Below the pieces are notes generated by a model. That model was not told the origin of the DNA, made no database searches, and worked only from the letters and a program-made list of their open reading frames with translations. Source: Pecten maximus (Eukaryota). Taken from it: 64,000 bases of DNA. This document shows positions 12,947 through 44,400 of the stretch, piece after piece. The stretch spans positions 25,916,001 through 25,980,000 of the forward strand of contig NC_047018.1 of NCBI RefSeq assembly GCF_902652985.1. Direction: 5' to 3'. The position numbers were made by a program, and so were the translations under genes. Numbering within the stretch: the stretch's first letter is position 1; the number at the start of each line of letters is the position of its first letter.

Positions 12947-13099
12947 TCCACTACACTCTCTTCATTTACTATATATGTAAATGGTATTAAATAACAATAC
13001 ATCACAATCATGTCACACTTCATCAGCACTTTGTGATAGCCCTAGCTCATCACTAAACAATAGAATTCTACAAGAGTAAGTATATGTCTACCAAGATTT

Positions 13100-13600
13100 C
13101 TCGATGGCTGTCACATGACACCACACTTCTCATTTGCTGTCACATGACAACAGACATCTCAATGGCTGTCACGTGATCAAGATCACAGACTTTTCAATAG
13201 CTGTCACATGACGAAATACTTCTCAATGGCTGTCACATGACAACAGACTTCTCAATGCTGTGCTGTCACATGACAACAGACTTCTCAATGGCTGTCACAT
13301 GACAACATACTTCTCAATGGCTGTCACATGACAACATACTTCTCAATGCTGTGCTGTCACATGACAACAGACTTCTCAATGCTGTGCTGTCACATGACAA
13401 AATACTTCTCAATGGCTGTCACATGACAACATACTTCTCAATGCTGTGCTGTCACATGACCACAGGCTTCTCAATGGCTGTAACATGACAAAAGAATTCT
13501 CAATGACTGTCATTCGACAGACTTCTCATTGGCCATCACTTGATCACCACAAACATTTCAGTGTCTGTCACATGACAACAGACTTTTCAGTGTGTCACAT
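13100..13600. repeat. 29/33-bp minisatellite with GTCACATGAC core
   Basis: Unit GCTGTCACATGACAACAGACTTCTCAATG. Confidence 0.92.
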
Positions 13601-15257
13601 TCATGGGAATGAATTTTTAGCAATGCTCCATAGTAAAAACCTGGCTCAGATGTGTCAGTTTATCAGATATTTAGGTACTGATAACATGTATATCTATCAT
13701 AGTAAGATGCAAGTAAAAGAAAACAGAATTGGAAGCGAATGTGATAGACATTGGTCATTGACCGTGGGTTGATTAGCTGTGTACATAAGGAGCTATGTTG
13801 AAACAAGCTAGAGATGAGTGTTATGTACCAAGATCTACATTAACTTTGAAAGGACAATTTTGTACGCTTAAAGTGATTTTGGGTGGATTTTACAATTTTG
13901 ACATTACTCAAATACAGCCTAAGAGAGATCAACCTCGGTGTCCAATACAGCCTTATCAGGTGAGGAATTTTGCGAAAATTACTCAGTATCTAAAATTATC
14001 ATTACGTATTGTGCAACATTTTAACCATTTTTAAAAATTAGACCCAGAAAAAGTTTAAGTGGTAGTGGTTTTATCTATAATTTCATTAAAACAAGTTATT
14101 TAACTTAAATTTTAAACAAGCTGCTTAATTTACTTGGTACCCAGTTGCTTTATACATTCGATGTATGAAGCTCTAATGCTATTACATGTACTTTTAAATA
14201 TATGATAGAATAATTAATGTTCAAATCCCATTGTGAAGTTTTTCATATATTTGCAAAACAATTAAAACCAGCAAAAAGCCCATGTCAGACAATAAGACCA
14301 TATTTATCCAACAAAAAGCCCAGGTCAGACAATAAGACAATGTCTGGCTATTAGACCACGTCAGACAATAAGCTCACTCGTGTATTTCGCTGCTTCATAG
14401 AAATGCCAATACATGCCACCCATCCCTTGAATCTGATACTACGGATTGACTTCCTGCAAGTATTGCTGGAAAACTATAATACGGCTATCTGTAGGAGCCA
14501 ATACTGAATTATTTCATTAATGCAAGCAGTTCAAGTAAGTCTGCATTGTTATGGATTATGCTATGTATAAATTCAATGATAAATACAACCCAGTCAGGTA
14601 ATCAAGAGGTCATCAAATGAAACACAGACATTTATAACACCTTTGATTTTAAGATTCAGTATACCAAACATTTACTTTATACACAATGTACTTATACAAA
14701 CCTGTCACAGCCTTTTCTATATACATGTAGTATGTAACTTACCTAACAGTTGGCATACAGTCCAACAGCTCTGTGACCATGATCAACTTAGCGGTAAGAA
14801 TATTTCGCTAATTTTGTTGGTATAGTATATATTCAGAAAATCTGTTCCCTTCTGGTAACAAAACGTTCTATATACTTTTTTACATTGTAGTAAAGTTACA
14901 AAATTCAACACACAACATGAGCAAAGAGGTCTGGAAATGTTGTAGTATAGTTACACAACACAACACACATGAGAAAAGGAAGTCTTGAAATGTTGCGACA
15001 CATTTATAAGTACTTTGTGTATATATAGAGCAAATATTTGATACAGCTATTATAACATACAAATGTCCGTGAGATCATGTATCTTCTGTATTACTAGTTC
15101 AGAAACTTAAACAGTTGTCATTTCAATTTTTAAACTTAAACCATAAGAAAGTGGTTCTTCCTCAATCAATAGGTTTTCTGTACTGGCTGTGTTCTATCCC
15201 GATCAGTCCGTCAAACTGTCAACACTGCTGAAGAGTCTGCGTGGCACACAAATATCA

Positions 15258-15356
15258 TCAGTTGGATTTCGTCGCTGCCCAGATGATCAAGCTCAGGAAT
15301 ATCACAACCACAAGTACAATGATAAAGATAATACACTTTTTTCGACGGGATTTATG
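15258..15356 (-). CDS. STX7: STX7/12 alternative transmembrane exon B (terminal): HKSRRKKCIIFIIVLVVVIFLSLIIWAATKSN*
   Basis: Strong polypyrimidine acceptor tctctttctttcag, phase 0; TGA TGA stops. Confidence 0.88.
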   Translation of the reverse strand, partial: HKSRRKKCIIFIIVLVVVIFLSLIIWAATKSN

Positions 15357-18300
15357 CTGAAAGAAAGAGAAAGAGCCACATCAGTTATATTGAAGTGCTA
15401 CATTTTTTTCTCATGTTCGATTCCTAAACAATTTCAAATGTATGTACATATCAAACATATTTACATGTTCATCTACGTATTTTATAAAAAGGATTACCAT
15501 GGTTGAGGGGCTCCAGGTTCAACCCCTCTGAGCAGTAAATGTCCTCAACATACTCCACTCATCTTTCATTAAGGTTTTATACAAATGTACAATCTTAATA
15601 ATTTTCATATCTATGGTACAATATTATCATTATTTTATTTTTTATCATCACCAGGGGTATATGTTTATAAAGATAGAAAACTCTAATGGGTAATAACTTG
15701 CGGCTCTATATAGTGTCTGAAGTCGCTATTTCATTGATCCTGGCGTGTATTAGTTTGACTCGACTTTCAGACTTAAAGTCCTAACTAGTGATATAAGTAA
15801 TATTAAAGTGTTTTAAATAATTAAAACATAATTAAGTTTTGATTATGTACAGTGTAATATGTAAAGACATTAGTTCTTCGATATCTTAAGGAACAGTTTA
15901 AGATATTATGCACCGGTCTTCATAGTCCGAATGATTCCGACTATCTATCTGCTAGCCTTCGATATACTGCTAGGGGCAGAAGATTTGCCCCATGCAGTAT
16001 AGACTACAGTAGACAGATAGTTAGAATCATTAGGACTACTATCCTCATAGTAAACATATTGTTTTCATTCTGCTTTTGTCTGCTTAATCATGAACAGGTG
16101 ATTTAGACCAGATGTTGAAGTGCTGCATTGGAAATTATATATAATATAATTTAAATTTATTATAATGATTGCAAATTACTGTAATACCTTATTATAAAAC
16201 GTAACTACTTCATCCACTGTAATTCACACAGGTGATACTAATAGCACATGTTGTAGGATATTGTGTATAGTACAAAGATGATGCACTATTAGAATTATAG
16301 CCTGTTCTGTCAGTACAATGAGTTTGAAACTCACTTCAGTTATCACTAAAAGTTTTCTCTAAAAAACTATCAAATACGTGAGCACCTTATATAAATGTTG
16401 TGGAATAAACATCAATGTTAAGTAAATTGCTACATAATGAAAAATACATACCTCATTAATTTTTCTGTGAAAAATATATAGCAATTATAATGGCTATAAC
16501 AGCGATAACAACTAGTAGAATTACTATACATATGCACTTTTTTCTTCTTGCTTTTGACTGAAAATGAATAAGTGAAAAATGAAAAAGTAGGGAAAATAAA
16601 AACACAGCAATGAAAAATAATTTCAGTTTACAACATCAAGAATCAATGCTAAAATCATGCATTTTTTTTTTCAAAAATAAAATAATAAAAGCAAACATCA
16701 AGTGAAGCTCATTTACCACATAGCTAACCTATGTAATGTTGTCATGTCTGGAATATTGTATGACATATGTACTATCACTATCATAAGATGGTATCGTATT
16801 GAAAAATGTTTTATCCAAAGAAATTCTGCCTTTCTTATAAGGAAATTAATTCAAATTCACATTTGTTTCCTCAGAAACACAATTTATTCGATAAACAGAA
16901 TCTGTTACGAGTTAAATGTCTTTGTACCATGAATTTTCTACAAGTAAACTTGAATTTGAGTATTCACTTGCCTACAGGCTCATGATATTGCATAGTAACA
17001 GGTACTTAACTTGTTCAATAAATAGTTATAAAATTCCATATTACACCGACATTCATGTATACATGAAGCAAGTTGTGTACATTGAGTCAGACCTCGAGCT
17101 CTTAGTCACAAGTATTTGTATTATCATAAATAATTTGAAGAGGTGAGGCATTTTTACTTTTCACAAATCAAATAAAACCGTCAGATTAATTACTAGCTGA
17201 CAGACAATTATAAGAACAATCATCAACATCCTAGTTTTATCTTTGTACCTAACATTCCAGTACTGACTGGACCTGCTAATAAATCACATTACATGGACAG
17301 GTTATCAATCACTTGATGTTTCGGCGATATAGGGGAAGGAGAATGAGGGATGGCGTTCACTACAACATAACAACATCAAAAGAAATCACTCAAACTTAAA
17401 AAGCACAACAAAAGAGACAACCTGAACAAGTAAGAAAGCCTACCTGGTAGTCTCTAGCTTTTGACAACTGTTGTGTTCCTTCCTCCACCCTGATCTGGGC
17501 ACTCTCCACATTGGCCTCTATACTGTCTGTAAATGACATGTACATAGATTATCGGTGTAGGAATTCCTACAATGTCAATGTACTAAAATAGTCCTCATAC
17601 AGTGGACCCTCGATAATCCGAACACCTTCGTTTCCAGTCCAAACCGTCCGGATTACGAGTTTTCGGGACTGCAGAATTTCGTGTACCAGGTCAAAAAAAT
17701 TGTCATGTAAGAGTTATCTCCCTTGATTATATACAATCCGGGACGTTTCATAAACACGTCAGACTTGTCGGACTTTTAAACAATAAATATACTTATGTTT
17801 CTGATATGATTCTTGTTTTGTTTTGTAGAAAGTAAAAAAATAAACTATGTTTTTTAAAAGAACATGTAAAGTGAAAATCGTTTTATTTATAGCGGGCATA
17901 TGTGACCTACAAACAACACACATGTGTCACGTCCCGGAGGTTCACAATCAAGTAGAAATTACAAACGTTAAATACCTTAAATAAAATACCCAGATTTTAC
18001 AACTTACCGTCAGTCCATGTTTTTTTTATGATTATTACGTACCAGAAACCCCAAGCTATGTATTTAAAAGTACGCGACACCAGCGAGAACTACCCAAGAT
18101 GTCCGATAATTATTAAACCCGTATTCACTTAACAATGTGACGCTCAGTTAAGTATCAGACGACTTTTGACTAATTTGTGTGTAATCAACCCAGTTCTTGT
18201 GATCACTGCTTAATACGTAAATGTGTATGTAATTAATAACATGCATCTTTCAATGAGTCGTCGTTTCACGTAACGGTGTTACAAAGCCGAAATCTGTGTT

Positions 18301-21300
18301 TACCCAATAAAAGTGTTAATGATGTTAATTACCGATCATAAATTTATCGTATCACGTACTGTATGTTTGTGCATAAATTCTGTAACATTTAGGTCGTAGA
18401 AAAAACAATGTACCGTTATAAAAACAAAAGCTACACATTGTAACACAGGTAAACACCCGGGGCTATGACCTGGCAGCGGTCTCTATGACTACGCACAGTG
18501 TCAAGCGATAGTCTGTACAGCTGTCGACACGGGTGACTTGCCCCGACATTTTTTTCTCCTCGTGGTGAAAACATCGTCCGGATTATTGAGGGAAATTTAC
18601 TAATGAAAAGTACGTTCCGTTCCCAAAATGGGCTTCCGGAATCGGAATCCGAATTTCCGGACTGGTGAGTACAAATAACGTTACGGAAATCCGTTCCCGT
18701 GCATTTCCGTCCGGACTGTGAGTTTTCCGGACTATCGGCGTCCGGATTATCGCGGGTCCACTGTATACAAATGAATTATGTCAATTTCAATTTGACTTTA
18801 TTATATTGGAAACAAATCTATTCAAATAGCAATATTTTGTCTTCCTCCTAGATTTTAAAATGATGTATACTGGTAGCAGATAGAAATCTTAACAGGTTCA
18901 GAACCATTTTCTGGTCAAGATCAATTCTAAGGAAGTTTAAAAGAAACAATACAATTGATCATTCACACTACAATCAACAATGGAACACTTTTTCATTATT
19001 TTGGTCATGTTAAAAAGAGTGAATGGAATTTGATCAAAGGGGCATAATTCCCATCAAAATATTTTACCGAGAGATTGTAGCAATCACATCTCTGTTTAAA
19101 TGAAAACAATTAACTGTCAATTACTGATATTGGGAGACTAGTAACACCTGTGGGTAATTTTTGATATTGGTAGACTATATTATTATTTGATATTCTCTCA
19201 AATTCTTACCTAACATTTCTCCCTGTTCATGCACCAGCATGCCGAGATCTTTGAAGATCTGGTTTACATCTACAATATCTCTCTGAAAGTTGAATATTCA
19301 AATGTATCCTAAAACTTCAACTTTTAACATATAAATACAACTGGTTTCTCCAAATAAACAAGTAGCAATATGAATACAGTTTTACATGATAGTTTGATGA
19401 CAGTATACTGACTCCATTCAGCAGTTTGACTTAACATTACATGTATGAATATATACGCTAAGATTTCTGTTTTCAGAAATGATATTTTAAAACTCATATC
19501 AGAACATACCTCTAGTTTTTTAATGGAATCTTCACGTTCCTGTAACATCTCCAGATCAACATCTTCTTCCATTTGTAAAATTTGACGTGTTTGGGAAAAT
19601 CTGTTAACATAGTGAATTAGCAATGTGATTGTTGTTTCAATTTAAAATGATCTCCCAATTATTTTATATACTGTGATATATATTTTGAAAAGATTGTCCT
19701 GTTGGAAATAGGATATCATGTCAAAATTGATAATTTGCAACAAATGATTTGAGCATTTTTGACAATGATTAGCCAATTAATCCAAATTATAGAGTTTTTG
19801 TACAGCAAATATTTATCACATCTGACACTGTTTTTTCTCTATTCGATTTGAACTCCATGTTTATGCATTAACCGATGAGATTCTTTTATCCACAGTGTTT
19901 GTATCAGTAGGCATTAGTTCAATCTACATACCCAGGAGCTGTCTGTTGTTCTTCTGGTCTGAAGTCACTGAATTCACTTAAACCCTGCAAAAATAACAAT
20001 AAATTAAAGACAAACAAAACAATAAGAAGATAAATAACAAATAATAATGGAGTTAAACTGTAATAATTAAAAGTGTTTTAACTTCGACTGTCCAACCATT
20101 TGTCCTTCATTCCTTACTTAAAAATTAGGTAACATTCAATTCCTATCCACAGGAACGGTTGAACCTTACTAAAAACTAACTAACATTTCCTACTCAAACG
20201 TACAATAGACTTTACTAAAAACTAACTAACATTTCCTACTCAAACGTACAATAGACTTTACTAAAAACTAACTAACATTTCCTACTCAAACGTACAATAG
20301 ACTTTACTAAAAACTAACTAACATTTCCTACTCAAACGTACAATAGACTTTACTAAAAACTAACTAACATTACCTACATACATGTACAATAGACTTTACT
20401 AAAAACTAGCTAACATTTCCTACTTACATGTACAATAGACTTTACTAAAAACTAACTAACATTTCCTACATACACGTACAATAGACTTTACTAAAAACTA
20501 GCTAACATTTCCTACTTACACGTACAATAGACTTTACTAAAAACTAGCTAACATTTCCTACATACAGGTACAATAGACTTTACTAAAAGCTAGCTAACAT
20601 TTCCTACTAACACGTACAATAGACTTTACTAAAAGCTAGCTAACATTTCCTACATACAGGTACAATAGACTTTACTAAAAACTAGTTAACATTCTCTACT
20701 TACGCGTACAATAGACTTTCCTATAAGCTAGTTAACATTCTCTACTTACACGTACAATAGACTTTACTAAAAGCTTGTTAACATTCTCTACTTACACGTA
20801 CAATAGACTTTACTAAAAACTAGCTAACATTTCCTACTAACACGTACAATAGACTTTACTAAAAGCTAGCTAACATTTCCTACATACAGGTACAATAGAC
20901 TTTACTAAAAACTAGTTAACATTCTCTACTTACGCGTACAATAGACTTTCCTATAAGCTAGTTAACATTCTCTACTTACGCGTACAATAGACTTTCCTAT
21001 AAGCTAGTTAACATTCTCTACTTACACGTACAATAGACTTTCCTATAAGCTAGTTAACATTCTCTACTTACAGGTGTGGTGGAACTGGAATGGGCCCTAG
21101 CTCTTGCTACACTAGCCTTCTCCTTCTCTGCAGCAGATCGTTGCACTGTTTGAAAGTTCTTCAAAGCATTACTGAATTCATCGGTAAGTCTGTCTCTCTG
21201 CACTTTCCATTTACTCTATAAAATAAAGTCACAAAGTTCCCAGCATACTTTATGTAATGACAAGGTATTTGAATCAAATTAAAACATCCAACTTCCTGTT

Positions 21301-23924
21301 ATATTTATATGAAATGTGTTCTGTACAGTGTATATCTGTTTCCTGCTATAAAGATCATCATACCTATACCTAACATGAAATGCATGTGGGCATTTGCTTT
21401 TGTGAATTGAGATTTAACATAAAATACACCAACTTTTATGGTTTGTCTCTTATTAACAGAAGCTAACTGTTATGGATCATTATTGGCTATTTATAGTATA
21501 CTCAAAATCAAGATTATCATGTGGCTATACAACCATATCAGATGCTGAAATGTATAAAATTTAAAATCATAATGCATTCTACTGCTGGATTATTTTAGAG
21601 CACATGAAATTAACAAAGTACCATATCATATACTTGTGGTTTAACTGAAAAGGCTGACACAGCCAAAATGTTATGAACATTGCATAACTTGCCTCTAATG
21701 AGTGGATTAGAACATGTACATGTTTCTTCAAACTTCATCTATCTGTTCACTAATACAGGTATGTAAGAGAAAACTAAAAACCTTAGTATGGTAAGTAAAA
21801 ACCGCACCTGTTCTGATGCTGGCATGGGAAGATGGGCCAGTTCCTTGAGGTCATGATTTGTATCCTTAGCCAGCTGATTGGTGTATGTCTGTGCCTGGTG
21901 CCTAGAACAAATATCAAAATCAATGGTCTGATTTACAAGTAGATACACATGTTTCTCCATTAGACATGAATGCTGTTATTACCACAGGATTATAGCACTG
22001 CAGAGCATACATATTAACCAAATTATCAATTATGTACTCTTGGCAGAATTTTTTTTTAAATTTTGGTGGAATATTGAAATTTGATTCTTGGTATAAAACA
22101 GATGAGGTACCTGGCATGTATGAAACCATAACTATGATGGGTATAAAATGACAGTTTCATATTTGTAGTAACAGTGGTATGAATTCAGCAAGAAACAAAA
22201 TTTATGTAATGGTTATAATAATCAGTATAACAATTTTTTCTACATCAATTTTTGTTTAATCCGTTATTTACATTTGCTCTCGAAGACGGTCACTATCCTG
22301 ACTGGATCCAATTTGATTGACAGCCTTTTGCATTTGTGCAACTGTTAAAACAAAATACAAAAAACATAACGTTTATTTACAATTCTTGACTCCTTTCTAT
22401 ACATTATCAACCGTGACACATATAACGGCTATACATGTATTACTAAAGATAAAAATAAACATTGTTTTCTGTTCGATAACAAATATTTTTTTATTACTCC
22501 ATTTCATGTACAAAATTGATAATGTTACTGCAACAAACAAGTTTGCGAGTTACCAATTGTTATTATCATATTGTTAATTTCTGATGAAAATGTAACAATG
22601 ATAATCAAAAGGTTTCTATCATTGGTGTACATGTCTTCTCTTCAAAAGGAAAAATCTCTACATATAAATGTCAGAAATACTGGTGCAAAGAATCATTTTG
22701 GTAAGGACATGCCAGGTTATCATAATAATTACTATAATGAATATGTTTCATCAGATTTTAACTTTTAAATATAACAAAAAGCATGATGACTCCAGCATGG
22801 CATGTCTTAATGACTTATATGACTTATAATATCTTTTTTATCATATGCATACAGTGATTGACAGCCAGTAGCGAAAATGTTTCTATTATTGAATGATTGA
22901 CAGAAAATATAGCTGTCATTATTTTTTGTTAAAAAACATTGCATTCAAAACCTGAATGAAATTTTTCTATTACATTTTGATAAAAATAATCAATTAAATG
23001 TTTCAGTTGGAATAAATTAACATAGAAGTAAATTTGAATGCCAGTAGAAATACCAAATTCTTTGAAATGTACAAGTTAAAGTTAACGGTTTCAGCTGACT
23101 TGTGTATTGACTGTAAATATCAAATAAAGCAATAACCGGATCTATGTAACCAGCAGATCACATTGTATATTAATATGAATATTTATAATTACCATATTGA
23201 GAGATTTTTTGTATATTTCCACTGATACTGTTAACTAATCTGTTGAACTCGCTGCTACCACCTGCGGCTAAAACGAAATTGGAAAATTCATATCAAATTT
23301 GCATGTATAAAATCACATACTGTTATGCATTTATTTCTGAAACTATTCTTCAGCATGATCATAATTTTTATAATTCAAAACATTTTATCCTATATCAATC
23401 CCTATGAGCCAACAGTAATTGAATTTCACAAAATTTGCAGTAGTTTCAAAAGCAGTCATTGTGAGGGACAGGGGTCATGGGCCAAATAAAATGTACAATA
23501 AATTTCAGTGACTCATAGAAACAATTCTAATTATAATCTTATTAAAAGATAAAAACAAAACAACAAGGACTGTAACTGTAGGTATTTTTAAAACAGCAGT
23601 GAAATGACCCATTGGTGATACATAGACTTATCTTTCCAGATTCTTGTAAAGCCAAATTAGTCAAATAATTCATAATTCAACCAAATTCAGAGTACATGTA
23701 CATGCTACCAAAAAAAGTGGGCTTTTTCTTAATGAATTAAAAGTTAATTTTCATTTCTAATATATTTTCTATCAATTTTGTTTTTCATTACATGTATCTA
23801 CCAGAGATCTAGATATGCTACAACAAGTGACAGTGAATTAAATTAAGATTTACTTACATGGTCTACTTCCTGACTGATACGACGAAAAACCACCATCAAA
23901 CTCCCCTCTTCCATACGATGCCAT
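15258..23924 (-). CDS. STX7: Syntaxin-7/12-like endosomal Qa-SNARE, spliced gene (about 282-283 aa)
   Basis: Exons 23858-23924, 23193-23267, 22272-22341, 21808-21901, 21072-21215, 19932-19984, 19510-19600, 19210-19282, 17444-17526, then 16456-16557 or 15258-15356. All GT-AG and frame-consistent. Translation gives an Habc region (NSISGNIQKISQY...YTNQLAKDT...QRDRLTDEFSNALKNFQTVQRSAAEKEK), a SNARE motif with the 0-layer Q ([33 protein letters not shown]) and a basic stretch plus TM anchor. STX7 versus STX12 cannot be resolved by eye. Confidence 0.93.
15923..16038. mobile_element. Short fold-back (palindromic) MITE-like element
   Basis: Arms tagtccgaatgattccgactatctatctgct / agtagacagatagttagaatcattaggacta, plus inner stem atactgc-taggggca / tgcccc-atgcagtat. 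Confidence 0.7.
16456..16557 (-). CDS. STX7: STX7/12 alternative transmembrane exon A: SKARRKKCICIVILLVVIAVIAIIIAIYFSQKN*
   Basis: Acceptor ttttcag in phase 0; basic juxtamembrane stretch plus hydrophobic run; TAA, then TGAG|gtatgt donor at 16451. Confidence 0.85.
   Translation of the reverse strand, partial: SKARRKKCICIVILLVVIAVIAIIIAIYFSQKN
17444..17526 (-). CDS. STX7: STX7/12 SNARE-motif exon [28 protein letters not shown]
   Basis: ttacag/gtaggc boundaries, 83 nt. Confidence 0.95.
17600..18763 (+). mobile_element. Non-autonomous Tc1/mariner-pogo type DNA transposon, copy 1
   Basis: TA|CAGTGGACCCTCGATAATCCG ... CGGATTATCGCGGGTCCACTG|TA; subterminal TCCGGA repeats; no transposase ORF; second copy at 58832. 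Confidence 0.9.
19210..19282 (-). CDS. STX7: STX7/12 SNARE-motif exon [24 protein letters not shown]
   Basis: tttcag/gtaaga boundaries, 73 nt. Confidence 0.95.
19510..19600 (-). CDS. STX7: STX7/12 exon FSQTRQILQMEEDVDLEMLQEREDSIKKLE
   Basis: taacag/gtatgt boundaries, 91 nt. Confidence 0.92.
19932..19984 (-). CDS. STX7: STX7/12 linker exon GLSEFSDFRPEEQQTAP
   Basis: ttgcag/gtatgt boundaries, 53 nt, needed to restore frame with the next exon. Confidence 0.85.
20166..21071. repeat. 46-bp minisatellite, about 20 units, abutting the STX donor at 21071
   Basis: Unit TTACTAAAAACTAGCTAACATTTCCTACTTACACGTACAATAGACT. Confidence 0.96.
21072..21215 (-). CDS. STX7: STX7/12 exon SKWKVQRDRLTDEFSNALKNFQTVQRSAAEKEKASVARARAHSSSTTP
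   Basis: ttatag/gtaagt boundaries, 144 nt. Confidence 0.93.
21808..21901 (-). CDS. STX7: STX7/12 exon HQAQTYTNQLAKDTNHDLKELAHLPMPASEQ
   Basis: ttctag/gtgcgg boundaries, 94 nt. Confidence 0.92.
22272..22341 (-). CDS. STX7: STX7/12 exon VAQMQKAVNQIGSSQDSDRLREQ
   Basis: taacag/gtaaat boundaries, 70 nt. Confidence 0.9.
23193..23267 (-). CDS. STX7: STX7/12 exon (S)AGGSSEFNRLVNSISGNIQKISQY
   Basis: ttttag/gtaatt boundaries, 75 nt, phase 1-1. Confidence 0.9.
23858..23924 (-). CDS. STX7: STX7/12 first coding exon MASYGRGEFDGGFSSYQSGSRP
   Basis: ATG at 23924, donor GTAAGT at 23857; acceptor ttgcag at 24061, so the exon also carries 5' UTR. Confidence 0.8.
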
Positions 23925-24919
23925 AGTTGAAGACAATCAGTTGTATTATAAGAAAGTTTTTATTGTCTTTTTATAACATATAATTCATATAATGTAGTGT
24001 ATGATGTCACCAATATTTAGGTTCCCTTGTTGGAAAGTTGTTTTAGACTTCTTTCATACCCTGCAAATTTGAAAAAGAAACCAGTTATTATTTGTGTGTT
24101 TGACCATAATTATTATTTACAGATAATCCCCAGTCTAATCAATTACACATCTTCCTTGTGACCAGGTGTGGTGTCCTACTGGTGGCCTTTGTATATATTT
24201 CAGTGAGGTAACACTATATATAAATACATCCATATGATCAGTTCTACACTATCACAATGACACAAACACATACAGTTGTATATATATTCAGCATGCGCAG
24301 CCTTCGATCCATACACAAAACCACTCGCTACAAACCGGCAGCTCACACACAAGGGAGTTAGATATAGGCTAATAGCCTATCTTAAAATGACCAAAGATGT
24401 TGATGTGAGGTTTAACAATATAAAACCGGAACTAATGGTCAGCCTTAGCTAAAATTATAATGTACTAAACAAATTATAATTCAGTACAATTATGGCTGTC
24501 GATAAGTGGTAGAACACAACTAAGAATAACACGTCTACTCTTCTTCGATTTTATTTTAAACTCTGAGCCCGTCTACAATCGTATGACGTCATAAATATTA
24601 CAACGTCATCATAACATTAGAAACGGCGCCATATTCACAACAATGACAGATCTTTTTAAATAATGAAATTTAGGATAAACATACGATATGTACGATGATC
24701 ACTTGGGTAAACTATCTGGATACCTTAAGTCCAATACATTGTGCTTCTGACATATTAAGCTAAATATTATATAAATCATCTTTAAATAACATTTGATGAA
24801 TAGATAGATTACTTTGAGTTTAATTTCTGACATGCAGATCTTATATCTATACTGTATATAATCAATAAATATTTACATAAGATTTACATCAGAAATAAAT
24901 CAGAAACCACATCCCTTAC

Positions 24920-25445
24920 CAGTTCCTGTATCATAATAGTACCGGAATCACTAAATGACATGAGTTGTTAAAAGCTGATCAGAGTCAGGTGATCTACAAT
25001 TTTATGTAAACATCACTATTTTTGGAACTGTCATTGAATTAATGTCACGTGTGTTTGGTCGTTCCACTTCGATTTCATCCACACGAACATTGTAACATAT
25101 ACTATATGTACAAAAAGAGCAAATACGTTAAAATAAACTTAAGCATGCATCGTTTTCCGTATGATTGGTCAAATCGATTCCTTTAGATATCACATATAAG
25201 ATAGTAGACATGGAGTATTTCGTCCGTTGATTTACATTTTCTTCTGTTACGGTCCGACAACACATTGTGCCGTAAAGTATGAACGAGAATTTGAAGTATT
25301 CCAAACGACTAATGATGTGTCCTTAAAGCTTACATATTAAACAAACATCACAAAACAATTAAAATTACGTGAAATAGAGCATCAGCCTGTTTTTTTCACT
25401 TCCGTACACACCTACTTCATCTTGCTTCTTGAGTGACGTAAATCC
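24920..25445 (-). promoter_or_regulatory. Putative non-coding first exon and promoter of STX7/12
   Basis: Donor CTG|GTAAGG at 24919; E-box GTCACGTG at 25044-25051; ETS-like CACTTCCG and CRE-like GTGACGTAA near 25400-25440. TSS is not determinable. Confidence 0.45.
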
Positions 25446-35400: not shown

Positions 35401-38400
35401 TAAGCTTTATACCATTGGTGGATCAAGAGATCAGGCCGACTAATTTCCAGGTGTCCCAAGGATGGTTCTGTTTCTTGAAGCCCAAAAAGCCTCCAGATCC
35501 TCCACTGTATATATGACATTTTGGATGATTTACATCTTTGATATGGATGTTCTTTTCAGATCATTTAGGGACAAGATAAAGTCAAGATTCATAAAAAAAC
35601 CCACAGTTATTTTCAAGCAATCTGTAAAGTTCAAATTGCTTATGATTTTAGTCATCATCGCTTTCCGATGTGTAAAGTGCATCGATCCATAATCATTGTA
35701 AAATAGCGTGTTAAAACAGCAATACCCAAAAATGGCTAATATTACCAGGTACTTCTTGAGCTACTAATTTGTACTATTTACAACCGTATCTTTCATTGTA
35801 AGTGCATCTCAAATCATTATGCTCTGTTAGAAATCCAGTATTTCACTTGTGAGTCAATTAAACAAGTATATGTAAAACAGACCATCAGATGGATCATATT
35901 GTTAGAGATATGGTATTGTGGTACATAGTTAGACAGAGCATCTAACCATTATAGAGAGTGATTGTTTTGTTTGGCTTTGTGTTGTATACTGTGTCCTATT
36001 GTCATTTAAGAATGGACTTGTGTTTTGCCAGTTGACATAGACAAAGATCACAATTATAAGGTGGTGATTTTGTTTTACTAGTTGACATAGAATTGTACAA
36101 AACTTACCATTATAGGAAGTGATTGTACTTTGCCAGTTGATATAGATAAGAAACAGCTAACCATTATTTGGTGATAGTGTTTGCCAGTGTGTGCTTCAAT
36201 CACTAACACTAGTCACACTCAGCTGTTGACAGTTGTCTGCCATTCAGCGGTCAGACCAATCTATTTGGACCACTAGTCAGTCCTCTCTAATTTTCTGCTC
36301 CCTTGCCACTAAAGGGCCAGCCTGGTGCACCCAGTAGTAGATTAACCTGGGACCAGACAGGACAGACCCAGCTACCAGCTCAGCAGCGCAACAAGGGCAA
36401 GAAACACACTGTCAACTTTGGAGAGTGGGAAAAGGGGTTTCAGGATGATAAACGCAAAGATTACAATAATTACCTCAAAACCAAACAGGTAAAGCTTGTG
36501 GTGACATTTAAACTTTCTTAATTTATTACAAAGAAAACAAGATCCAGTGTCCAGTATAGGTAGTTTTGTACATACTGTTGACTCCCTAGGATGGATTCTA
36601 ATTATAAATAGAATACACAAGTCTGGTTCATAAAATGTATAAACAAAACATACAGATGACCAGACAACATCCGTAGGGAGATCTTAAACAGGTTTCACGG
36701 TTTACATTTTCCAGCATACTAGGTATGCTGTCCTAGATATGCTGTCCACATAACCCTTTATGTATGTACATTTCTGTACCTATAGTCATCACATACTACT
36801 ATTTGGATGAGGTGGCGGGTGTCAGACATTTGAAAAACAAAGGAAATAAAACCAGCTATAATAGAGACTGTCTTAATTGCTACTGAAATTCCAGGAATAT
36901 ATATGCCAAGCAAATGTCTGACAAAGCTCCTGACAAAAGTTTTTGTCTTAATTCCTACTGATATTCCACATGGGAATATATGTGCCAAGCAAATGTCTGA
37001 CAAAGCTCCTGACAAAAGTTTTTGTCTTAATTCCTACTGATATTCCACATGGGAATATATGTGCCAAGCAAATGTCTGACAAAGCTCCTGACAAAAGTTT
37101 TTGTCTTAATTCCTACTGATATTCCACATGTAGGAATATATATGCCAAGCAAATATCTGACAAAGCTCCTCAGACAAAAGTTTTTGTCTTAATTCCTACT
37201 GATATTCCACATGGGAATATATGTGCCAAGCAAATGTCTGACAAAGCTCCTGACAAAAGTTTTTGTCTTAATTCCTACTGATATTCCACATGTAGAAATA
37301 TATGTGCCAAGCAAATTTCTGACAAAGCTCCTGACAAAAGATTTTAATTTTGATTTAAGATGTCCATATTTGGTTCATTATTAAACTATTACAGTGCTTC
37401 CTCATAGTCACCACTGGTTTGTACGAACTGTTTAGACAGGAAACTCATGCACCATCCTAAAATTTCAATTATACTGAACAGTCTTTATTTTTCATTTAGT
37501 ATTGAGTTTTACAAACAATCTGAATAATCATACATTGACTCATGAATTCAGTCACCTTAGGATCAATTTTGTCATTTGGGGAAAAATGTATGAAGGTGAA
37601 AATCAGTATCTATATTATAAGAACGGATATAAATTAATAGGTAAGGGAAATGAAAAAAAAATCCTGCCATTTATTTTGAACTGAATGAATTCGAAGATTT
37701 TCGATAGCAATTGAACTTCAAACAATTTGAATATTTGCATTAAGAAAATTGAATGACTATTCTGTGGTTCTGTAGAGTATATAAGTGTTATAAATCAGAT
37801 GATGGACAGACTTACACCTATGGTCATTCACAGCCCATGTCATGTACTGGTTAATGTGTCATGGTTCCTATGGTAGAGGATAGAGGTGGGAAGTGTGGGT
37901 TACAGGGCTACACAATACTCCTTATATTATTTGCTGTTTCTATATCATAAAAGCTTGGGTGAAAAACATTATCTGTTTGAGTACATGGGTAGGTATCAAA
38001 CATTCTTTGAATGTTATCCTTGTTTTAGGTTTCTGGGAGGGGAATGGATTCCTTGAGTGTTATCCTGGTTTGAGGTTTCAGGGTGTGTATGGATTCCTTG
38101 AGTGTTATCCTGGTTTGAGGTTTCTAGGTGGGTATGGATTCCTTGAGTGTTATCCTGGTTTGAGGTTTTAGGGTGTGTATGGATTCCTTGAGTGTTATCC
38201 TTGTTTAAGGTTTCTGGGTGGGTATGGATTCCTTGAGTGTTATCCTTGTTTGAGGTTTCTGGGTGGGTATGGATTCCTTAAGTGTTATCCTGGTTTGAGG
38301 TTTCTAGGTGGGTATGGATTCCTTGAGTGTTATCCTGGTTTGAGGTTTCTGGGTGGGTATGGATTCCTTGAGTGTTATCCTGGTTTGAGGTTTCTGGGTG

Positions 38401-41400
38401 GGTAAAGATTCCTTGAGTGTTATCCTGGTTTGAGGTTTCTGGGTGGGTATGGATTCCTTGAGTGTTATCCTGGTTTGAGGTTTCTGGGTGGGTATGGATT
38501 CCTTAAGTGTTATCCTGGTTTGAGGTTTCTATGTGGGTATGGATTCCTTGAGTGTTATCCTGGTTTGAGGTTTCTGGGTGGGTATGGATTCCTTGAGTGT
38601 TATCCTTGTTTGAGGTTTCTGGGTGGGTATGGATTCCTTGTCTGTTATCCTTGTTTGAGGTTTCTGGGTGGGTATGGTTTCCTTGAGTGTTATCCTTGTT
38701 TGAGGTTTCTGGGTGGGTATGGTTTCCTTGAGTGTTATCCTTGTTTGAGGTTTCTGGGTGGGTATGGATTCCTTGAGTGTTATCCTGGTTTGAGGTTTCT
38801 GGGTGGGTAAAGATTCCTTGAGTGTTATCCTTGTTTGAGGTTTCTGGGTGGGTATGGATTCCTTGAGTGTTATCCTTGTTTGAGGTTTCTGGGTGGGTAT
38901 GGATTCCTTGAGTGTTATCCTGGTTTGAGGTTTCAGGGTGGGTATGTATTCCTTGACTGTTATCCTTGTTTGAGGTTTCTGGGTGGGTATGGATTCCTTG
39001 AGTGTTATCCTGGTTTGAGGTTTCTGGGTGGGTATGGATTCCTTGACTGTTATCCTTGTTTGAGGTTTCTGGGTGGGTATGGTTTCCTTGAGTGTTATCC
39101 TTGTTTGAGGTTTCTGGGTGGGTATGGATTCCTTGAGTGTTATCCTGGTTTGAGGTTTCTGGGTGGGTATGGATTCCTTGAGTGTTATCCTGGTTTGAGG
39201 TTTCTGGGTGGGTATGGATTCCTTGAGTGTTATCCTGGTTTGAGGTTTCTGGGTGGGTATGGATTCCTTGAGTGTTATCCTGGTTTGGGGTTTCTGGGTG
39301 GGTAAAGATTCCTTGAGTGTTATCCTTGTTTGAGGTTTCTGGGTGGGTATGGTTTCCTTGAGTGTTATTCTGGTTTAAGGTTTCTGGGTGGGTATGGATT
39401 CCTTGACTGTTATCCTGGTTTGAGGATTCTGGGTGGGTATGGATTCCTTGAGTGTTATCCTTGTTTAAGGTTTCTGGGTGGGTATGGATTCCTTGACTGT
39501 TATCCTGGTTTGAGGTTTCTGGGTGGGTATGGATTCCTTGAGTGTTATCCTGGTTTGAGGTTTCTGGGTGGGTATGGATTCCTTGAGTGTTATCCTGGTT
39601 TGAGGTTTCTGGGTGGGTATGGATTCCTTGACTGTTATCCTTGTTTGAGGTTTCTGGGTGGGTATGGATTCCTTGACTGTTATCCTGGTTTGATGTTTCT
39701 GGGTGGGTATGGATTCCTTGAGTGTTATCCTTGTTTGAGGTTTCTGGGTGGGTATGGATTCCTTGAGTGTTATCCTGGTTTGAGGTTTCAGGGTGGGTAT
39801 GTATTCCTTGACTGTTATCCTTGTTTGAGGTTTCTGGGTGGGTATGGATTCCTTGAGTGTTATCCTGGTTTGAGGTTTCTGGGTGGGTATGGATTCCTTG
39901 ACTGTTATCCTTGTTTGAGGTTTCTGGGTGGGTATGGTTTCCTTGAGTGTTATCCTTGTTTGAGGTTTCTGGGTGGGTATGGATTCCTTGAGTGTTATCC
40001 TGGTTTGAGGTTTCTGGGTGGGTATGGATTCCTTGAGTGTTATCCTGGTTTGAGGTTTCTGGGTGGGTATGGATTCCTTGAGTGTTATCCTGGTTTGAGG
40101 TTTCTGGGTGGGTATGGATTCCTTGAGTGTTATCCTGGTTTGGGGTTTCTGGGTGGGTAAAGATTCCTTGAGTGTTATCCTTGTTTGAGGTTTCTGGGTG
40201 GGTATGGTTTCCTTGAGTGTTATTCTGGTTTAAGGTTTCTGGGTGGGTATGGATTCCTTGACTGTTATCCTGGTTTGAGGATTCTGGGTGGGTATGGATT
40301 CCTTGAGTGTTATCCTTGTTTAAGGTTTCTGGGTGGGTATGGATTCCTTGACTGTTATCCTGGTTTGAGGTTTCTGGGTGGGTATGGATTCCTTGAGTGT
40401 TATCCTGGTTTGAGGTTTCTGGGTGGGTATGGATTCCTTGAGTGTTATCCTGGTTTGAGGTTTCTGGGTGGGTATGGATTCCTTGACTGTTATCCTTGTT
40501 TGAGGTTTCTGGGTGGGTATGGATTCCTTGACTGTTATCCTGGTTTGATGTTTCTGGGTGGGTATGGATTCCTTGAATGTTATCCTTTGTTTGAGGTTTC
40601 TGGGTGGGTATGGATTCCTTGTCTGTTATCCTTGTTTGAGGTTTCTGGGTGGGTATGGTTTCCTTGAGTGTTATCCTTGTTTGAGGTTTCTGGGTGGGTA
40701 TGGTTTCCTTGAGTGTTATCCTTGTTTGAGGTTTCTGGGTGGGTAAAGATTCCTTGTTTGATGTTTCTGGGTGGATATGGATTCCATGCATGCTATCCTT
40801 GTTTGAGGTTTCTGGGTGGGTATGGATTCCTTGAGTGTTATCCTGGTTTGAGGTTTCTGGGTGGGTATGGATTCCTTGACTGTTATCCTTGTTTGAGGTT
40901 TCTGGGTGGGTATGGTTTCCTTGAGTGTTTTCCTTGTTTGAGGTTTCTGGGTGGGTATGGATTCCTTGAGTGTTATCCTGGTTTGAGGTTTCTAGGTGGG
41001 TATGGATTCCTTGAGTGTTATCCTGGTTTGAGGTTTCTGGGTGGGTATGGATTCTTTGAGTGTTATCCTGGTTTGAGGTTTCTGGGTGGGTATGGATTCC
41101 TTGAGTGTTATCCTGGTTTGAGGTTTCTGGGTGGGTATGGATTCCTTGAGTGTTATCCTTGTTTGAGGTTTCTGGGTGGGTATGGTTTCCTTGAGTGTTA
41201 TTCTGGTTTATGGTTTCTGGGTGGGTATGGATTCCTTGACTGTTATCCTGGTTTGAGGATTCTGGGTGGGTATGGATTCCTTGAGTGTTATCCTTGTTTA
41301 AGGTTTCTGGGTGGGTATGGATTCCTTGACTGTTATCCTGGTTTGAGGTTTCTGGGTGGGTATGGATTCCTTGAGTGTTATCCTGGTTTGAGGTTTCTGG

Positions 41401-44400
41401 GTGGGTATGGATTCCTTGAGTGTTATCCTGGTTTGAGGTTTCTGGGTGGGTATGGATTCCTTGACTGTTATCCTTGTTTGATGTTTCTGGGTGGGTATGG
41501 ATTCCTTGACTGTTATCCTTGTTTGATGTTTCTGGGTGGGTATGGATTCCTTGACTGTTATCCTGGTTTGATGTTTCTGGGTGGGTATGGTTTCCTTGAG
41601 TGTTATCCTTGTTTGAGGTTTCTGGGTGGGTAAAGATTCCTTGTTTGAGGTTTCTGGGTGGATATGGATTCCTTGCATGCTATCCTTGTTTGAGGTTTCT
41701 GGGTGGGTATGGATTCCTTGAGTGTTATCCCTGTTTGAGGTTTCTGGGTGGGAATAAGAGATTCCTTGAATGCTATCCTAGTTTGAGGTTTCTGGGTGGG
41801 TATGGATTCCTTGAATGCTACAATTACTGTTCTGAGTGGCTCATTCAATATTGAATTGATCAGAGTAATGAATTTAAAAAATGAGAGAAAACTGAAGATT
41901 ATAAGTTGACATGGTTAAAAAAGTAAAACTGAAGCACATGAACACATACTCCATTATATATGATTATCCTCCAATGAATTGTGAAATCTTCTGTAGAACC
42001 AGGGGCGTGTTCTGAAGAAGGAGCCAACACCCCCTTTGGAGGGGATGAAGTTTGGGGAATATGAGGAGTACAAGAGAGAACAGGAGCCTGACCGCAAGAG
42101 ACAGTACAAGGAGGACTTAGAGAAGGTACAACATGTCATGGTTGTTTAGAAGGTACAATATGTCATGGTTGTTTAGAGGGTACAACATGTCATGGTTGTT
42201 TAGAAGGTACAATATGTCATGGTTGTTTAGAAGGTACAATATGTCATGGTTGTTTAGAAGGTACAATATGTCATGGTTGTTTAGAAGGTACAATATGTCA
42301 TGGTAGTTTAGAAGGTACAATATGTCGTGGTTGTTTAGAAGGTACAATATGTCGTGGTTGTTTAGAAGGTACAATATGTCGTGGTTGTTTAGAAGGTACA
42401 ATATGTCATGGTTGTTTAGAAGGTACAATATGTCATGGTTGTTTAGAAGGTACAATATGTCATGGTTGTTTAGAAGGTACAATATGTCATGGTTGTTTAG
42501 AAGGTACAATATGTCATGGTTGTTTAGAAGGTACAATATGTCATGGTTGTTTAGAAGGTACAATATGTCATGTTTGTTTAGAAGGTACAATATGTCATGG
42601 TTGTTTAGACGGTACAATATGTCATGGTTGTTTAGAAGGTACAATATGTCATGGTTGTTTAGAAGGTACAATATGTCATGGTTGTTTAGAAGGTACAATA
42701 TGTCATGGTTGTTTAGAAGGTACAATATGTCATGGTTGTTTAGAAGGTACAATATGTCATGGTTGGTTAGAAGGTACAATATGTCATGGTTGTTTAGAAG
42801 GTACAATATGTCATGGTTGTTTAGAAGGTACAATATGTCATGGTTGTTTAGAAGGTACAATATGTCATGGTTGTTTAGAAGGTACAATATGTCATGGTTG
42901 TTTAGAAGGTACAATATGTCATGGTTGTTTAGAAGGTACAATATGTCATGGTTGTTTAGAAGGTACAATATGTCATGGTTGTTTAGAAGGTACAATATGT
43001 CGTGGTTGTTTAGAAGGTACAATATGTCGTGGTTGTTTAGAAGGGTACAATATGTCATGGTTGTTTAGAAGGTACAATATGTCATGGTTGTTTAGAAGGT
43101 ACAATATGTCATGGTTGTTTAGAAGGTACATAGGCATTGTGGTTAAAGGTACATAAGTCATGGTTGTTTAGAAGGTACAATATGTCATGGTTGGTTAGAA
43201 GGTACAATATGTCATGGTTGTTTAGAAGGTACAATATGTCATGGTTGTTTAGAAGGTACAATATGTCATGGTTGTTTAGAAGGTACAATATGTCATGGTT
43301 GTTTAGAAGGTACAATATGTCATGGTTGTTTAGAAGGTACAATATGTCATGGTTGTTTAGAAGGTACAATATGTCATGGTTGTTTAGAAGGTACAATATG
43401 TCATGGTTGTTTAGAAGGTACAATATGTCATGGTTGTTTAGAAGGTACAATATGTCATGGTTGTTTAGAAGGTACAATATGTCATGGTTGTTTAGAAGGT
43501 ACAATATGTCATGGTTGTTTAGGAAGGTACAATATGTCATGGTTGTTTAGAAGGTACAATATGTCATGGTTGTTTTAGAAGGTACAATATGTCATGGTTG
43601 TTTAGAAGGTACAATATGTCATGGTTGTTTTAGAAGGTACAATATGTCATGGTTGTTTAGAAGGTACAATATGTCATGGTTGTTTAGAAGGTACAATATG
43701 TCGTGGTTGTTTAGAAGGTACAATATGTCGTGGTTGTTTAGAAGGTACAATATGTCATGGTTGTTTAGAAGGTACAATATGTCGTGGTTGTTTAGAAGGT
43801 ACAATATGTCATGGTTGTTTAGAAGGTACAATATGTCATGGTTGTTTAGAAGGTACAATATGTCATGGTTGTTTAGAAGGTACAATATGTCATGGTTGGT
43901 TAGAAGGTACAATATGTCATGGTTGTTTAGAAGGTACAATATGTCATGGTTGTTTAGAAGGTACAATATGTCATGGTTGTTTAGAAGGTACAATATGTCA
44001 TGGTTGTTTAGAAGGTACAATATGTCATGGTTGTTTAGAAGGTACAATATGTCATGGTTGTTTAGAAGGTACAATATGTCATGGTTGTTTAGAAGGTACA
44101 ATATGTCATGGTTGTTTAGAAGGTACAATATGTCATGGTTGTTTCTCTATCACTCTTTACAGACCAAGGGGGTCCATTTGATACAATTGATATTGAAATA
44201 CATTGACGTCAATTACAGGTATGGTGAAAATATACGGTTCACAAACATGGTATATATGACATAAAATTAGGCTAATATATAGTTCACTAGTTTGAAGGTT
44301 CATTTTAGACAGGTGTGATTAGTGGTAATATTGTGTTGTTTGTCAGTGGGTCAACAATCATTGTAACTGGAAGTTCACCTGTTAACGTAGCATTTACTGG

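What the first reader, a model, noticed from the sequence alone, without database searches (positions are those of the whole stretch)
15258..16557. Syntaxin-7/12 with two duplicated alternative transmembrane exons
Seen: two paralogous phase-0 exons, xK[AS]RRKKCI followed by different hydrophobic anchors and tails (SKARRKKCICIVILLVVIAVIAIIIAIYFSQKN and HKSRRKKCIIFIIVLVVVIFLSLIIWAATKSN). Exon A has a GTATGT donor 4 nt after its stop, so it can be a cassette spliced onto exon B (which becomes UTR) while probably escaping the 50-nt NMD rule. A has two juxtamembrane Cys, B has one. Knowledge: alternative C-terminal anchors are known for plasma-membrane syntaxins 1-3, and vertebrate STX7 is palmitoylated at a juxtamembrane Cys. 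I do not know of such switching in STX7/12. Inference: anchor switching changes palmitoylation or compartment.
Basis: partly seen in the sequence, partly recalled or inferred. Interest (0 to 1): 0.7.

Follow-up and report, generated by a model that had tools for sequence, protein, structure and literature searches.

The report
Ancient swappable anchors on endosomal syntaxin
This scallop gene for an endosome-fusion protein (syntaxin-7/12) carries two related exons for its membrane anchor, usually uses the first and rarely appears to skip to the second, and the same pair occurs in other molluscs, ribbon worms, mites and crustaceans, so it is likely a very old splicing switch that would tune how the protein sits and moves in membranes.

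Summary
Real and expressed. The minus-strand gene translates letter for letter to Pecten maximus RefSeq syntaxin-7-like isoforms X1 (exon A) and X2 (exon B). RNA contigs join A to B in 8 of 8 runs laid and exon 9 to A in 7 of 8. The skip to B shows in 1 of 8, on one short contig. The pair is much wider than molluscs: 27 same-species A/B protein pairs (bivalves, gastropods, chiton, nemertean, mite, decapods, amphioxus), and 17 of 64 tail-bearing metagenome loci hold two tails in tandem. Downstream B keeps a Trp/Tyr at tail position 26, like fish STX12 and Hydra. Upstream A mostly lacks it and has an extra basic residue and more cysteines. A weak tree fits one protostome duplication and a separate amphioxus one. 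Function is untested; total anchor length hardly differs, and a plant analogue is largely redundant. The kind is known (unc-64a/b, STX3A/B, SYP132). Ten literature searches found no report for STX7/12. The scan noted similar twin anchors before on other genes (algal SYP1, octopus nicastrin), not this one.

The parts
23858..23924 (-). First coding exon (coding part, from ATG)
   Evidence: Model translates to P0032/P0031 exactly
23193..23267 (-). Coding exon 2 (Habc region)
   Evidence: Pfam Syntaxin_2 on residues 33-165
22272..22341 (-). Coding exon 3 (Habc region)
21808..21901 (-). Coding exon 4 (Habc region)
21072..21215 (-). Coding exon 5 (Habc region)
19932..19984 (-). Coding exon 6 (linker)
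19510..19600 (-). Coding exon 7 (start of SNARE helix)
   Evidence: RNA joint 19282-19510 in 3 of 4 runs
19210..19282 (-). Coding exon 8 (SNARE helix with zero-layer Gln218)
17444..17526 (-). Coding exon 9 (C-terminal half of SNARE helix); its donor is shared by both anchor exons
   Evidence: RNA joint 17526-19210 in 4 of 4 runs
16452..16557 (-). Exon A, 106 nt cassette: basic linker, two Cys, transmembrane helix without the position-26 aromatic, stop codon, 4 nt, then GT donor
   Evidence: joint from exon 9 in 7 of 8 runs and joint to B in 8 of 8 runs
15258..15356 (-). Exon B coding part: basic linker, one Cys, transmembrane helix with Trp26; coding when A is skipped, 3' UTR when A is included
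   Evidence: skip joint on one 58-nt contig in run X11; RefSeq isoform X2
13800..15257 (-). Shared 3' UTR in the last exon (runs on beyond 13800; its end was not mapped)
   Evidence: continuous contig cover in 4 of 4 runs

Best explanation
The gene is the scallop syntaxin-7/12 gene, whose membrane-anchor exon exists in two tandem copies that likely arose by one duplication in an early protostome, and skipping or including the first copy swaps the anchor on an otherwise identical SNARE, which likely tunes its lipid contacts, acylation and cycling between cell surface and endosomes. Shown: including A (which carries its own stop just before its donor) turns B into 3' UTR and is the main RNA form; skipping A puts B in frame. 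Shown by comparison: B keeps the older design (Trp/Tyr at tail position 26, usually four basic linker residues in arthropods and an uncharged position 7 in most taxa), while A has a K/R at position 7 (the scallop linker after Tyr-Gln equals that of syntaxin-1A), more juxtamembrane Cys, more Val and usually no position-26 aromatic. Inferred: the short stop-to-junction distance is kept to avoid NMD; the choice is cell-type or stage regulated; partner specificity is unchanged because the SNARE helix is shared; the effect is quantitative (residence time, lipid domain, recycling) rather than a new fusion route.
For: RNA joints A-B 8 of 8, exon 9-A 7 of 8, skip 1 of 8 runs from 6 studies; in X11 the depths of inclusion (8.3) and skip (3.5) contigs sum to about the shared exon-B contig (12.2). 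27 same-species A/B pairs in 22 genera with the preceding 100 residues identical. 17 of 64 tail-bearing metagenome loci (of 80 fetched) hold two tails in tandem, 0 hits on the reverse-strand control; labelled by order alone, Trp/Tyr26 is in 17 of 17 downstream and 3 of 17 upstream tails, K/R7 in 16 of 17 upstream and 5 of 17 downstream. Three fused gene models (Mytilus edulis, Mactra, Nucella) read A into B. In 9 of 12 intron-free contigs B starts 5-40 nt from the first base of A's stop; in 5 of 5 genomic loci a donor-like GT lies 7-52 nt from it. Tail tree needs 2 label changes against 24.9 for shuffles, 0 of 500 as low; five single-tail outgroups fall with B. The scallop paralogue on C10 has the same intron and a Tyr26 tail. 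The minor exon B is 79% identical between Pecten and Mytilus, A 69%. A has more Cys than B in 13 of 16 spiralian and 4 of 5 arthropod genera. [quoted passage not shown]
Against: No localisation, acylation, proteomic or tissue data were obtained. The skip joint in this species rests on one 58-letter contig with 30 and 28 letters a side, under the tool's own 31-letter bridging rule, and the tool's row carries a '106 letters between' label that fits the neighbouring 164-letter contig. GES hydrophobic length is nearly equal (22.9 vs 22.6 in 16 spiralian genera); the 3-residue longer aliphatic core of A (16 of 16) depends on counting the aromatic as the end, and does not hold in decapods. Simulations show little real length variation among SNARE anchors (PMC13748404 section 2.2) and vertebrate endosomal and plasma-membrane anchors are of similar length (PMC2928124). 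Cys difference is reversed in Biomphalaria and absent in Aplysia, Lineus and Oppia. The tree has 32 columns; the A/B branch has 84/78 support and only 17% of bootstrap trees give one change; by BLOSUM score Hydra and Glandiceps tails are as close or closer to spiralian A than B. 47 of 64 loci show one tail only, 39 with 150 or more bases left. The plant analogue SYP132 alpha/beta is largely redundant (PMC7145992).
Confidence: 0.55

Rival explanations
1. The two anchors are functionally interchangeable. The duplication is kept for a regulatory reason (mRNA level, stability or translation set by including A) or by subtle dosage effects, as appears largely true for SYP132 alpha/beta.
For: Equal GES length, both Ile-rich late-pathway type (criteria from PMC13748404 section 2.1). 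Both scallop forms keep Cys8. Many lineages show one tail only (spiders, Glandiceps, 47 of 64 loci). A plant line lacking SYP132 alpha forms normal arbuscules (PMC7145992).
Against: A- and B-specific residues have stayed distinct across phyla (Trp/Tyr26 in 37 of 37 B and 4 of 37 A; K/R7 in 35 of 37 A and 9 of 37 B), which redundancy alone would not predict. Same-species A/B identity (0.42) is lower than A/A (0.61) and B/B (0.50) between 10 distant spiralian genera.
Confidence: 0.25
2. The switch is qualitative: A and B send the same SNARE to different compartments (for example surface or early endosome versus late endosome), doing by splicing what gene duplication did in vertebrates.
For: A's linker equals that of plasma-membrane syntaxin-1A, A has more Val (25% vs 17%), and Val rises along the secretory pathway (PMC13748404). 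This lineage is the one that duplicated into STX7 and STX12 in vertebrates (bioRxiv 10.64898/2026.02.03.703479 passage).
Against: The fish STX12 tail is B-type, and STX7's is too as recalled, so the vertebrate split did not use an A-like anchor. Invertebrates have a second paralogue (C10 gene here; Drosophila Syx13 acts at late endosomes). Cytosolic signals also sort SNAREs.
Confidence: 0.15
3. The pairs arose several times independently (spiralians, mites, crustaceans, amphioxus) because this small terminal exon duplicates easily, and their likeness is convergent.
For: Amphioxus has two B-type tails that do not group with protostome A; L041's upstream tail also groups with B; Gigantopelta has a further A-like copy. 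Convergent tandem duplications are common, and C-terminal ones are enriched (PMC9741552 passages). Short hydrophobic sequences converge easily.
Against: Same order, same stop-then-donor layout and same diagnostic residues in mollusc-, annelid-, mite- and copepod-like loci; cross-phylum A/A and B/B scores exceed A/B scores in all three protostome comparisons.
Confidence: 0.2
4. Exon B is a dead relic inside the 3' UTR and the B isoform is annotation noise.
For: Skip joint absent from 7 of 8 runs, including the two deepest.
Against: B is open and conserved in all 17 two-tail loci and 27 pairs; it keeps its own acceptor in 5 of 5 genomic loci; B is spliced directly to the SNARE exon in three intron-free mite-like contigs (L005, L013, L016) and in a Penaeus protein seen on 16 assembled contigs against 134 for the commonest A form.
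Confidence: 0.03

Closest known systems
C. elegans unc-64 (syntaxin-1) exons 8a/8b, isoforms UNC-64A/B (PMC4946901, passages)
   Same: One syntaxin gene, two tandem last exons giving different C-terminal hydrophobic anchors on the same SNARE.
   Different: unc-64 is a plasma-membrane Qa; only the last 14 residues differ; tissue regulation by UNC-75 is shown there. Here the whole linker and anchor are swapped on an endosomal Qa, and regulation is unknown.
Vertebrate STX3A/STX3B (PMC11119284, passages)
   Same: Splicing gives syntaxin isoforms with different transmembrane domains.
   Different: STX3A/B also differ in the SNARE domain and are plasma-membrane syntaxins. In the scallop the SNARE helix is shared (oysters and a chiton add a second SNARE exon choice).
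Medicago SYP132 alpha/beta (PMC7145992, passages)
   Same: Alternative last exons of one Qa-SNARE gene, kept over long times.
   Different: Plant plasma-membrane class; shown to be largely redundant. Here A carries a donor and shares B's UTR instead of being a terminal exon.
Tandem duplicated exon substitution with C-terminal swap (236 human events, 77 C-terminal; PMC9741552, passages)
   Same: Homologous tandem exons used one at a time at protein level; often old and often on transmembrane helices.
   Different: STX or syntaxin does not occur in the paper's main text, and the one supplement held showed only STXBP1; that file is small and may not be the full event list.
KRAS exons 4A/4B (recalled; lead from earlier finding e1-8797371, not checked in a paper here)
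   Same: As recalled: a stop-containing upstream paralogous exon is spliced onto the downstream one, which then becomes UTR; the two ends differ in acylation and basic charge.
   Different: Lipid anchors of a small GTPase, not transmembrane helices; in KRAS the skip form is the common one as recalled.
Vertebrate STX7 and STX12/13 (PDB 1gl2, 2nps, 2dnx best hits)
   Same: Habc domain, Qa SNARE helix, basic linker, one anchor; B-type tail in fish STX12.
   Different: Two genes, each seen here with one tail type (only fish STX12 tails were in my data); no A-type exon seen.

Membership tests
Endosomal Qa-SNARE, STX7/STX12 lineage (Qa.III.b) | N-terminal Habc domain of the Syntaxin_2 type | tested here: met
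   PF14523 123 bits, cut-off 26.5; best PDB hit STX12 Habc, E 6.5e-31
Endosomal Qa-SNARE, STX7/STX12 lineage (Qa.III.b) | SNARE motif with zero-layer Gln, closer to STX7/13 than to STX1 | tested here: met
   PF05739 72-74 bits; Gln218 invariant in 34 of 34 aligned; STX7 and STX13 at 79 bits against 58 for STX1A
Endosomal Qa-SNARE, STX7/STX12 lineage (Qa.III.b) | Basic linker and one C-terminal transmembrane helix | tested here: met
   Both exons; 19-residue hydropathy peaks 3.8 (A) and 3.5 (B)
Endosomal Qa-SNARE, STX7/STX12 lineage (Qa.III.b) | Phylogenetic placement as pro-orthologue of STX7 and STX12, apart from the Syx20/TSNARE1 paralogue | tested here: inconclusive
   No tree of the cores was built; rests on best hits and source names. 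Three other loci in the genome are more distant
Endosomal Qa-SNARE, STX7/STX12 lineage (Qa.III.b) | Acts on endosomes | not testable with these tools
   Needs localisation
Tandem duplicated exon substitution (C-terminal swap) | Two homologous exons in tandem, same phase | tested here: met
   13 of 32 residues identical ungapped; tblastn E 2e-7 within the 12 kb region
Tandem duplicated exon substitution (C-terminal swap) | Each exon is used as coding in transcripts | tested here: met
   A in 7 of 8 runs; B in 1 of 8 runs on one short contig (weak in this species), plus RefSeq X2 and direct B splicing in relatives
Tandem duplicated exon substitution (C-terminal swap) | Tissue- or stage-specific use | not tested
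   Run tissues are not given; only contigs, no raw reads
Alternative-anchor syntaxins (unc-64a/b, STX3A/B, SYP132) | Plasma-membrane Qa class | tested here: not met
   Sequence is STX7/12-type; works like them, but is a separate case
Alternative-anchor syntaxins (unc-64a/b, STX3A/B, SYP132) | Isoforms differ in function or expression | not testable with these tools
   Needs bench work or tissue-resolved reads

The most novel reading that the evidence does not exclude
Since the protostome ancestor, the single syntaxin-7/12 gene has carried a regulated splice switch between the ancestral endosomal anchor (B) and a newer anchor with a syntaxin-1-like linker and extra acylation sites (A), and this switch moves the same SNARE between membranes. 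It would be a natural anchor-swap experiment kept for over half a billion years (age recalled), repeated independently in amphioxus, and missed because vertebrates seem to lack it.
Probability: 0.2. Interest if true: 0.75.

Novelty: new member of a known kind. Interest (0 to 1): 0.5.

Why it matters
Whether SNARE transmembrane anchors are passive or help decide where and how a SNARE works is still debated (PMC13748404). Here one gene gives two proteins that are identical except for linker and anchor, and each anchor has kept its own signature across phyla. That makes the question directly testable with a natural pair. It also corrects how these genes are read: the commonest invertebrate form (A) is likely the derived one, the exon that looks like 3' UTR is the ancestral anchor, and some automatic gene models fuse the two wrongly.

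Tried and rejected
Length sorting as the main mechanism: GES run length is 22.9 vs 22.6, so not adopted. Acylation on/off: both scallop forms keep Cys8. Exon A as a piece captured from syntaxin-1: the linker matches STX1A, but exon A alone found no syntaxin in the PDB at E up to 10 (3 chance hits), and the same linker type occurs in other syntaxins, so capture is not claimed. A second copy of exon 9 in this window, as in oysters and Liolophura: none found in 13000-25000 with 9 queries. A third anchor exon: only a weak 14-residue hit at 16670-16629 without an acceptor context, rejected. Absence of the skip joint in 7 runs is not taken as absence, since contigs drop rare forms. Taxon labels of unnamed loci come from best tblastn scores against 44 named proteins and are firm only for L003 (bivalve), L004 (gastropod), L006/L008/L041 (mite), L007/L080 (annelid); copepod-like and other labels are loose. 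He and Linder 2009 was not held. Insects, nematodes, flatworms, brachiopods, cephalopods and echinoderms did not appear among named hits and were not tested. No structure or complex prediction was run, as it would not bear on the question. L003 was left out of the distance count because its A frame runs on past the expected stop; L003, L030 and extra species per genus were left out of the tree.

Full report
Observation. On the minus strand, exon 9 (17526-17444) ends in phase 0 and is followed by two exons, A (16557-16452) and B (from 15356), each behind a pyrimidine tract and AG. A encodes 33 residues, then TAA, four bases and a GTATGT donor. B encodes 32 residues and continues as a long 3' UTR. 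They share 13 of 32 residues ungapped. Nine coding exons plus A or B, all GT-AG, translate exactly to Pecten maximus RefSeq syntaxin-7-like isoforms X1 and X2. Pfam gives Syntaxin_2 and SNARE above cut-off, and the best solved relatives are STX12, STX7 and STX13.

Expression. I laid 8 of the 24 listed runs, from 6 studies, all as assembled contigs. The A-B joint appears in 8 of 8 and the exon 9-A joint in 7 of 8. The skip joint 17444-15356 appears in 1 of 8 (X11): a 58-letter contig at depth 3.5 beside a 164-letter inclusion contig at 8.3, which sum to about the 12.2 of the shared exon-B contig. This is the pattern of a two-path bubble, but the contig has only 30 and 28 letters a side, below the tool's bridging rule, and the row's '106 letters between' label fits the longer contig. 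In the deep run X2, inclusion (304) plus unspliced (18) accounts for nearly all of exon B (329). So A is the main form and skipping is rare or restricted. Tissues are not known.

Conservation in proteins. Three homology searches (29, 120 of 286 and 120 of 411 hits listed) and 30 cluster look-ups gave 27 same-species pairs in 22 genera whose last 100 residues before the tail are identical and whose tails differ: 10 bivalve rows, 8 gastropod rows, the chiton Liolophura, the nemertean Lineus, the mite Oppia, 5 decapods and Branchiostoma. Most are automatic RefSeq models. Species with one tail type in these look-ups include Mizuhopecten, Saccostrea, three Haliotis, three Penaeus, Homarus, Panulirus, Dermatophagoides, four spiders, Glandiceps and Hydra. 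For named pairs other than the scallop I set the A/B label by likeness, not by gene order. Three fused models (Mytilus edulis, Mactra, Nucella) do show A before B.

Conservation in DNA. A scan of metagenome contigs kept 80 of 214 confirmed stretches. A profile of tails hit 64 loci, 17 of them twice and 47 once; the reverse strands gave 0 hits. Of the 17, 12 are intron-free over the coding region and 5 are genomic. In 9 of the 12, the second tail starts 5-40 nt from the first base of the first tail's stop; L007 (46 nt) and L008 (317 nt) end in an acceptor-like AG, and L003's frame runs on. In the 5 genomic loci each tail has its own acceptor, and a donor-like GT lies 7-52 nt from the stop (picked by pattern, no chance control). 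Best matches make these bivalve, gastropod, annelid, mite and, more loosely, copepod loci. Three mite-like contigs splice the SNARE exon straight to B. The stop-then-donor layout therefore recurs across protostomes. It fits the 50-55 nt NMD rule, which is recalled from mammals and may not apply strictly in invertebrates.

How the anchors differ. Labelled by order alone, the downstream tail has Trp/Tyr at position 26 in 17 of 17 loci and the upstream in 3 of 17; K/R at position 7 is in 16 of 17 upstream and 5 of 17 downstream. In spliced contigs the B register comes from the profile, so this is partly circular; it also holds in the 7 loci where an AG fixes the start. Over all 37 pairs in the tree set the counts are 37 and 4, and 35 and 9. 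Fish STX12, Hydra, Glandiceps and the scallop's own C10 paralogue have the position-26 aromatic, so B looks ancestral. In 16 spiralian genera A begins with a near-invariant linker that, in scallop, equals syntaxin-1A's. A has more Cys in 13 of 16 genera (equal in 2, fewer in 1) and more Val. A's aliphatic core runs about three residues further if the aromatic is taken as the end (16 of 16), but GES length is almost the same (22.9 vs 22.6).

Origin. A tree of 79 tails (32 columns) needs 2 changes of the A/B label against 24.9 for shuffles. 35 of 37 A tails lie on one side of a branch with 84/78 support; both amphioxus tails, one mite upstream tail and five single-tail outgroups lie with B. Cross-phylum A/A and B/B scores exceed A/B scores among protostomes, not with amphioxus. 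Against this, only 17% of bootstrap trees give one change, the columns are few and hydrophobic, and Hydra and Glandiceps score as close to A as to B. One protostome duplication plus a separate amphioxus one is the likeliest reading (about 0.7), not a proven one.

Mechanism. Shown: inclusion of A makes protein A and silences B as UTR; skipping makes protein B. Inferred: because the SNARE helix is shared, partners are unchanged, and the swap alters basic charge, acylation sites and the luminal end of the helix. STX7 cycling between surface and endosomes depends on its acylation site (passage in PMC4049605 citing He and Linder 2009; the original was not held). The likeliest effect is a quantitative change in cycling or lipid-domain residence in certain cell types. 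Rivals are redundancy, as for SYP132 (PMC7145992 passages), and a full compartment switch. Anchor-length arguments are weak: PMC2928124 passages and PMC13748404 abstract, sections 2.1, 2.4 and the first of two parts of 2.2.

Known relatives and novelty. Alternative anchors are described for unc-64 (PMC4946901 passages), STX3 (PMC11119284 passages) and SYP132; the general class is in PMC9741552 (passages and one small supplement). Ten full-text searches listed no paper describing it for STX7/12; I judged most from listings and abstract starts. A 2026 preprint on Drosophila Syx7 and the 2026 SNARE anchor survey have no hit for 'isoform' or 'splic'. Passages of PMC2639358, PMC8883487 and PMC4582192 added background only. 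Subscription papers, notably Kloepper et al. 2008, and preprint supplements could not be seen and may mention it. The scan's own notes hold nothing on this gene or place but similar cases on other genes. Verdict: a real, old and apparently undescribed member of a known kind, already present in databases as automatic isoforms, with function untested. Interest 0.5.

Noticed in passing
window 17597-18766: A 1.17 kb element with 30-nt terminal inverted repeats (90% complementary) in the intron before exon 9. It is high-copy in all four runs, and one contig of run X1 skips it (joint 17597-18764), so it looks like a polymorphic non-autonomous DNA transposon insertion.
   Followed up: partly
window 20166-21072: A 46-nt minisatellite of about 20 copies starts exactly at the donor of coding exon 5, and many units repeat a GTAAGT donor-like sequence.
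   Followed up: no
proteins P0008/P0036, P0009/P0039, P0056/P0153, P0021/P0043, P0055: Oysters and the chiton Liolophura also have two alternative versions of exon 9 (C-terminal half of the SNARE helix), which would multiply with the anchor choice; a Magallana model fuses both. No second exon 9 in this window.
   Followed up: partly
proteins P0062, P0160, P0159: Gigantopelta aegis has three tail versions, two of A type and one of B type.
   Followed up: no
proteins P0112, P0117, P0126: In the horseshoe crab Tachypleus two separate gene copies are annotated, one with a B-type and one with an A-like tail; possibly the splice options were split between duplicates.
   Followed up: no
L002 1483-2391 (G000 C4, about 9 Mb from the window): An intronless 302-codon syntaxin-like ORF, 33-34% identical to this protein, with an A-like tail carrying two Cys; possibly an old retrocopy.
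   Followed up: partly
L084 (G000 C10) and L083 (G000 C11): Two further Qa genes: the C10 gene has the same exon layout near the end and a B-type tail (likely the Syx20/TSNARE1 lineage, inferred); the C11 gene looks like syntaxin-16 (label recalled).
   Followed up: partly
proteins P0011, P0038, P0154: Oyster models without an anchor (read-through after the alternative exon 9, or a frameshifted end); may be soluble forms or annotation noise.
   Followed up: no
window 38002-44144 and 50534-55012: Long tandem arrays (45-nt, 27-nt and 155-nt units) explain the strong base skews there.
   Followed up: no
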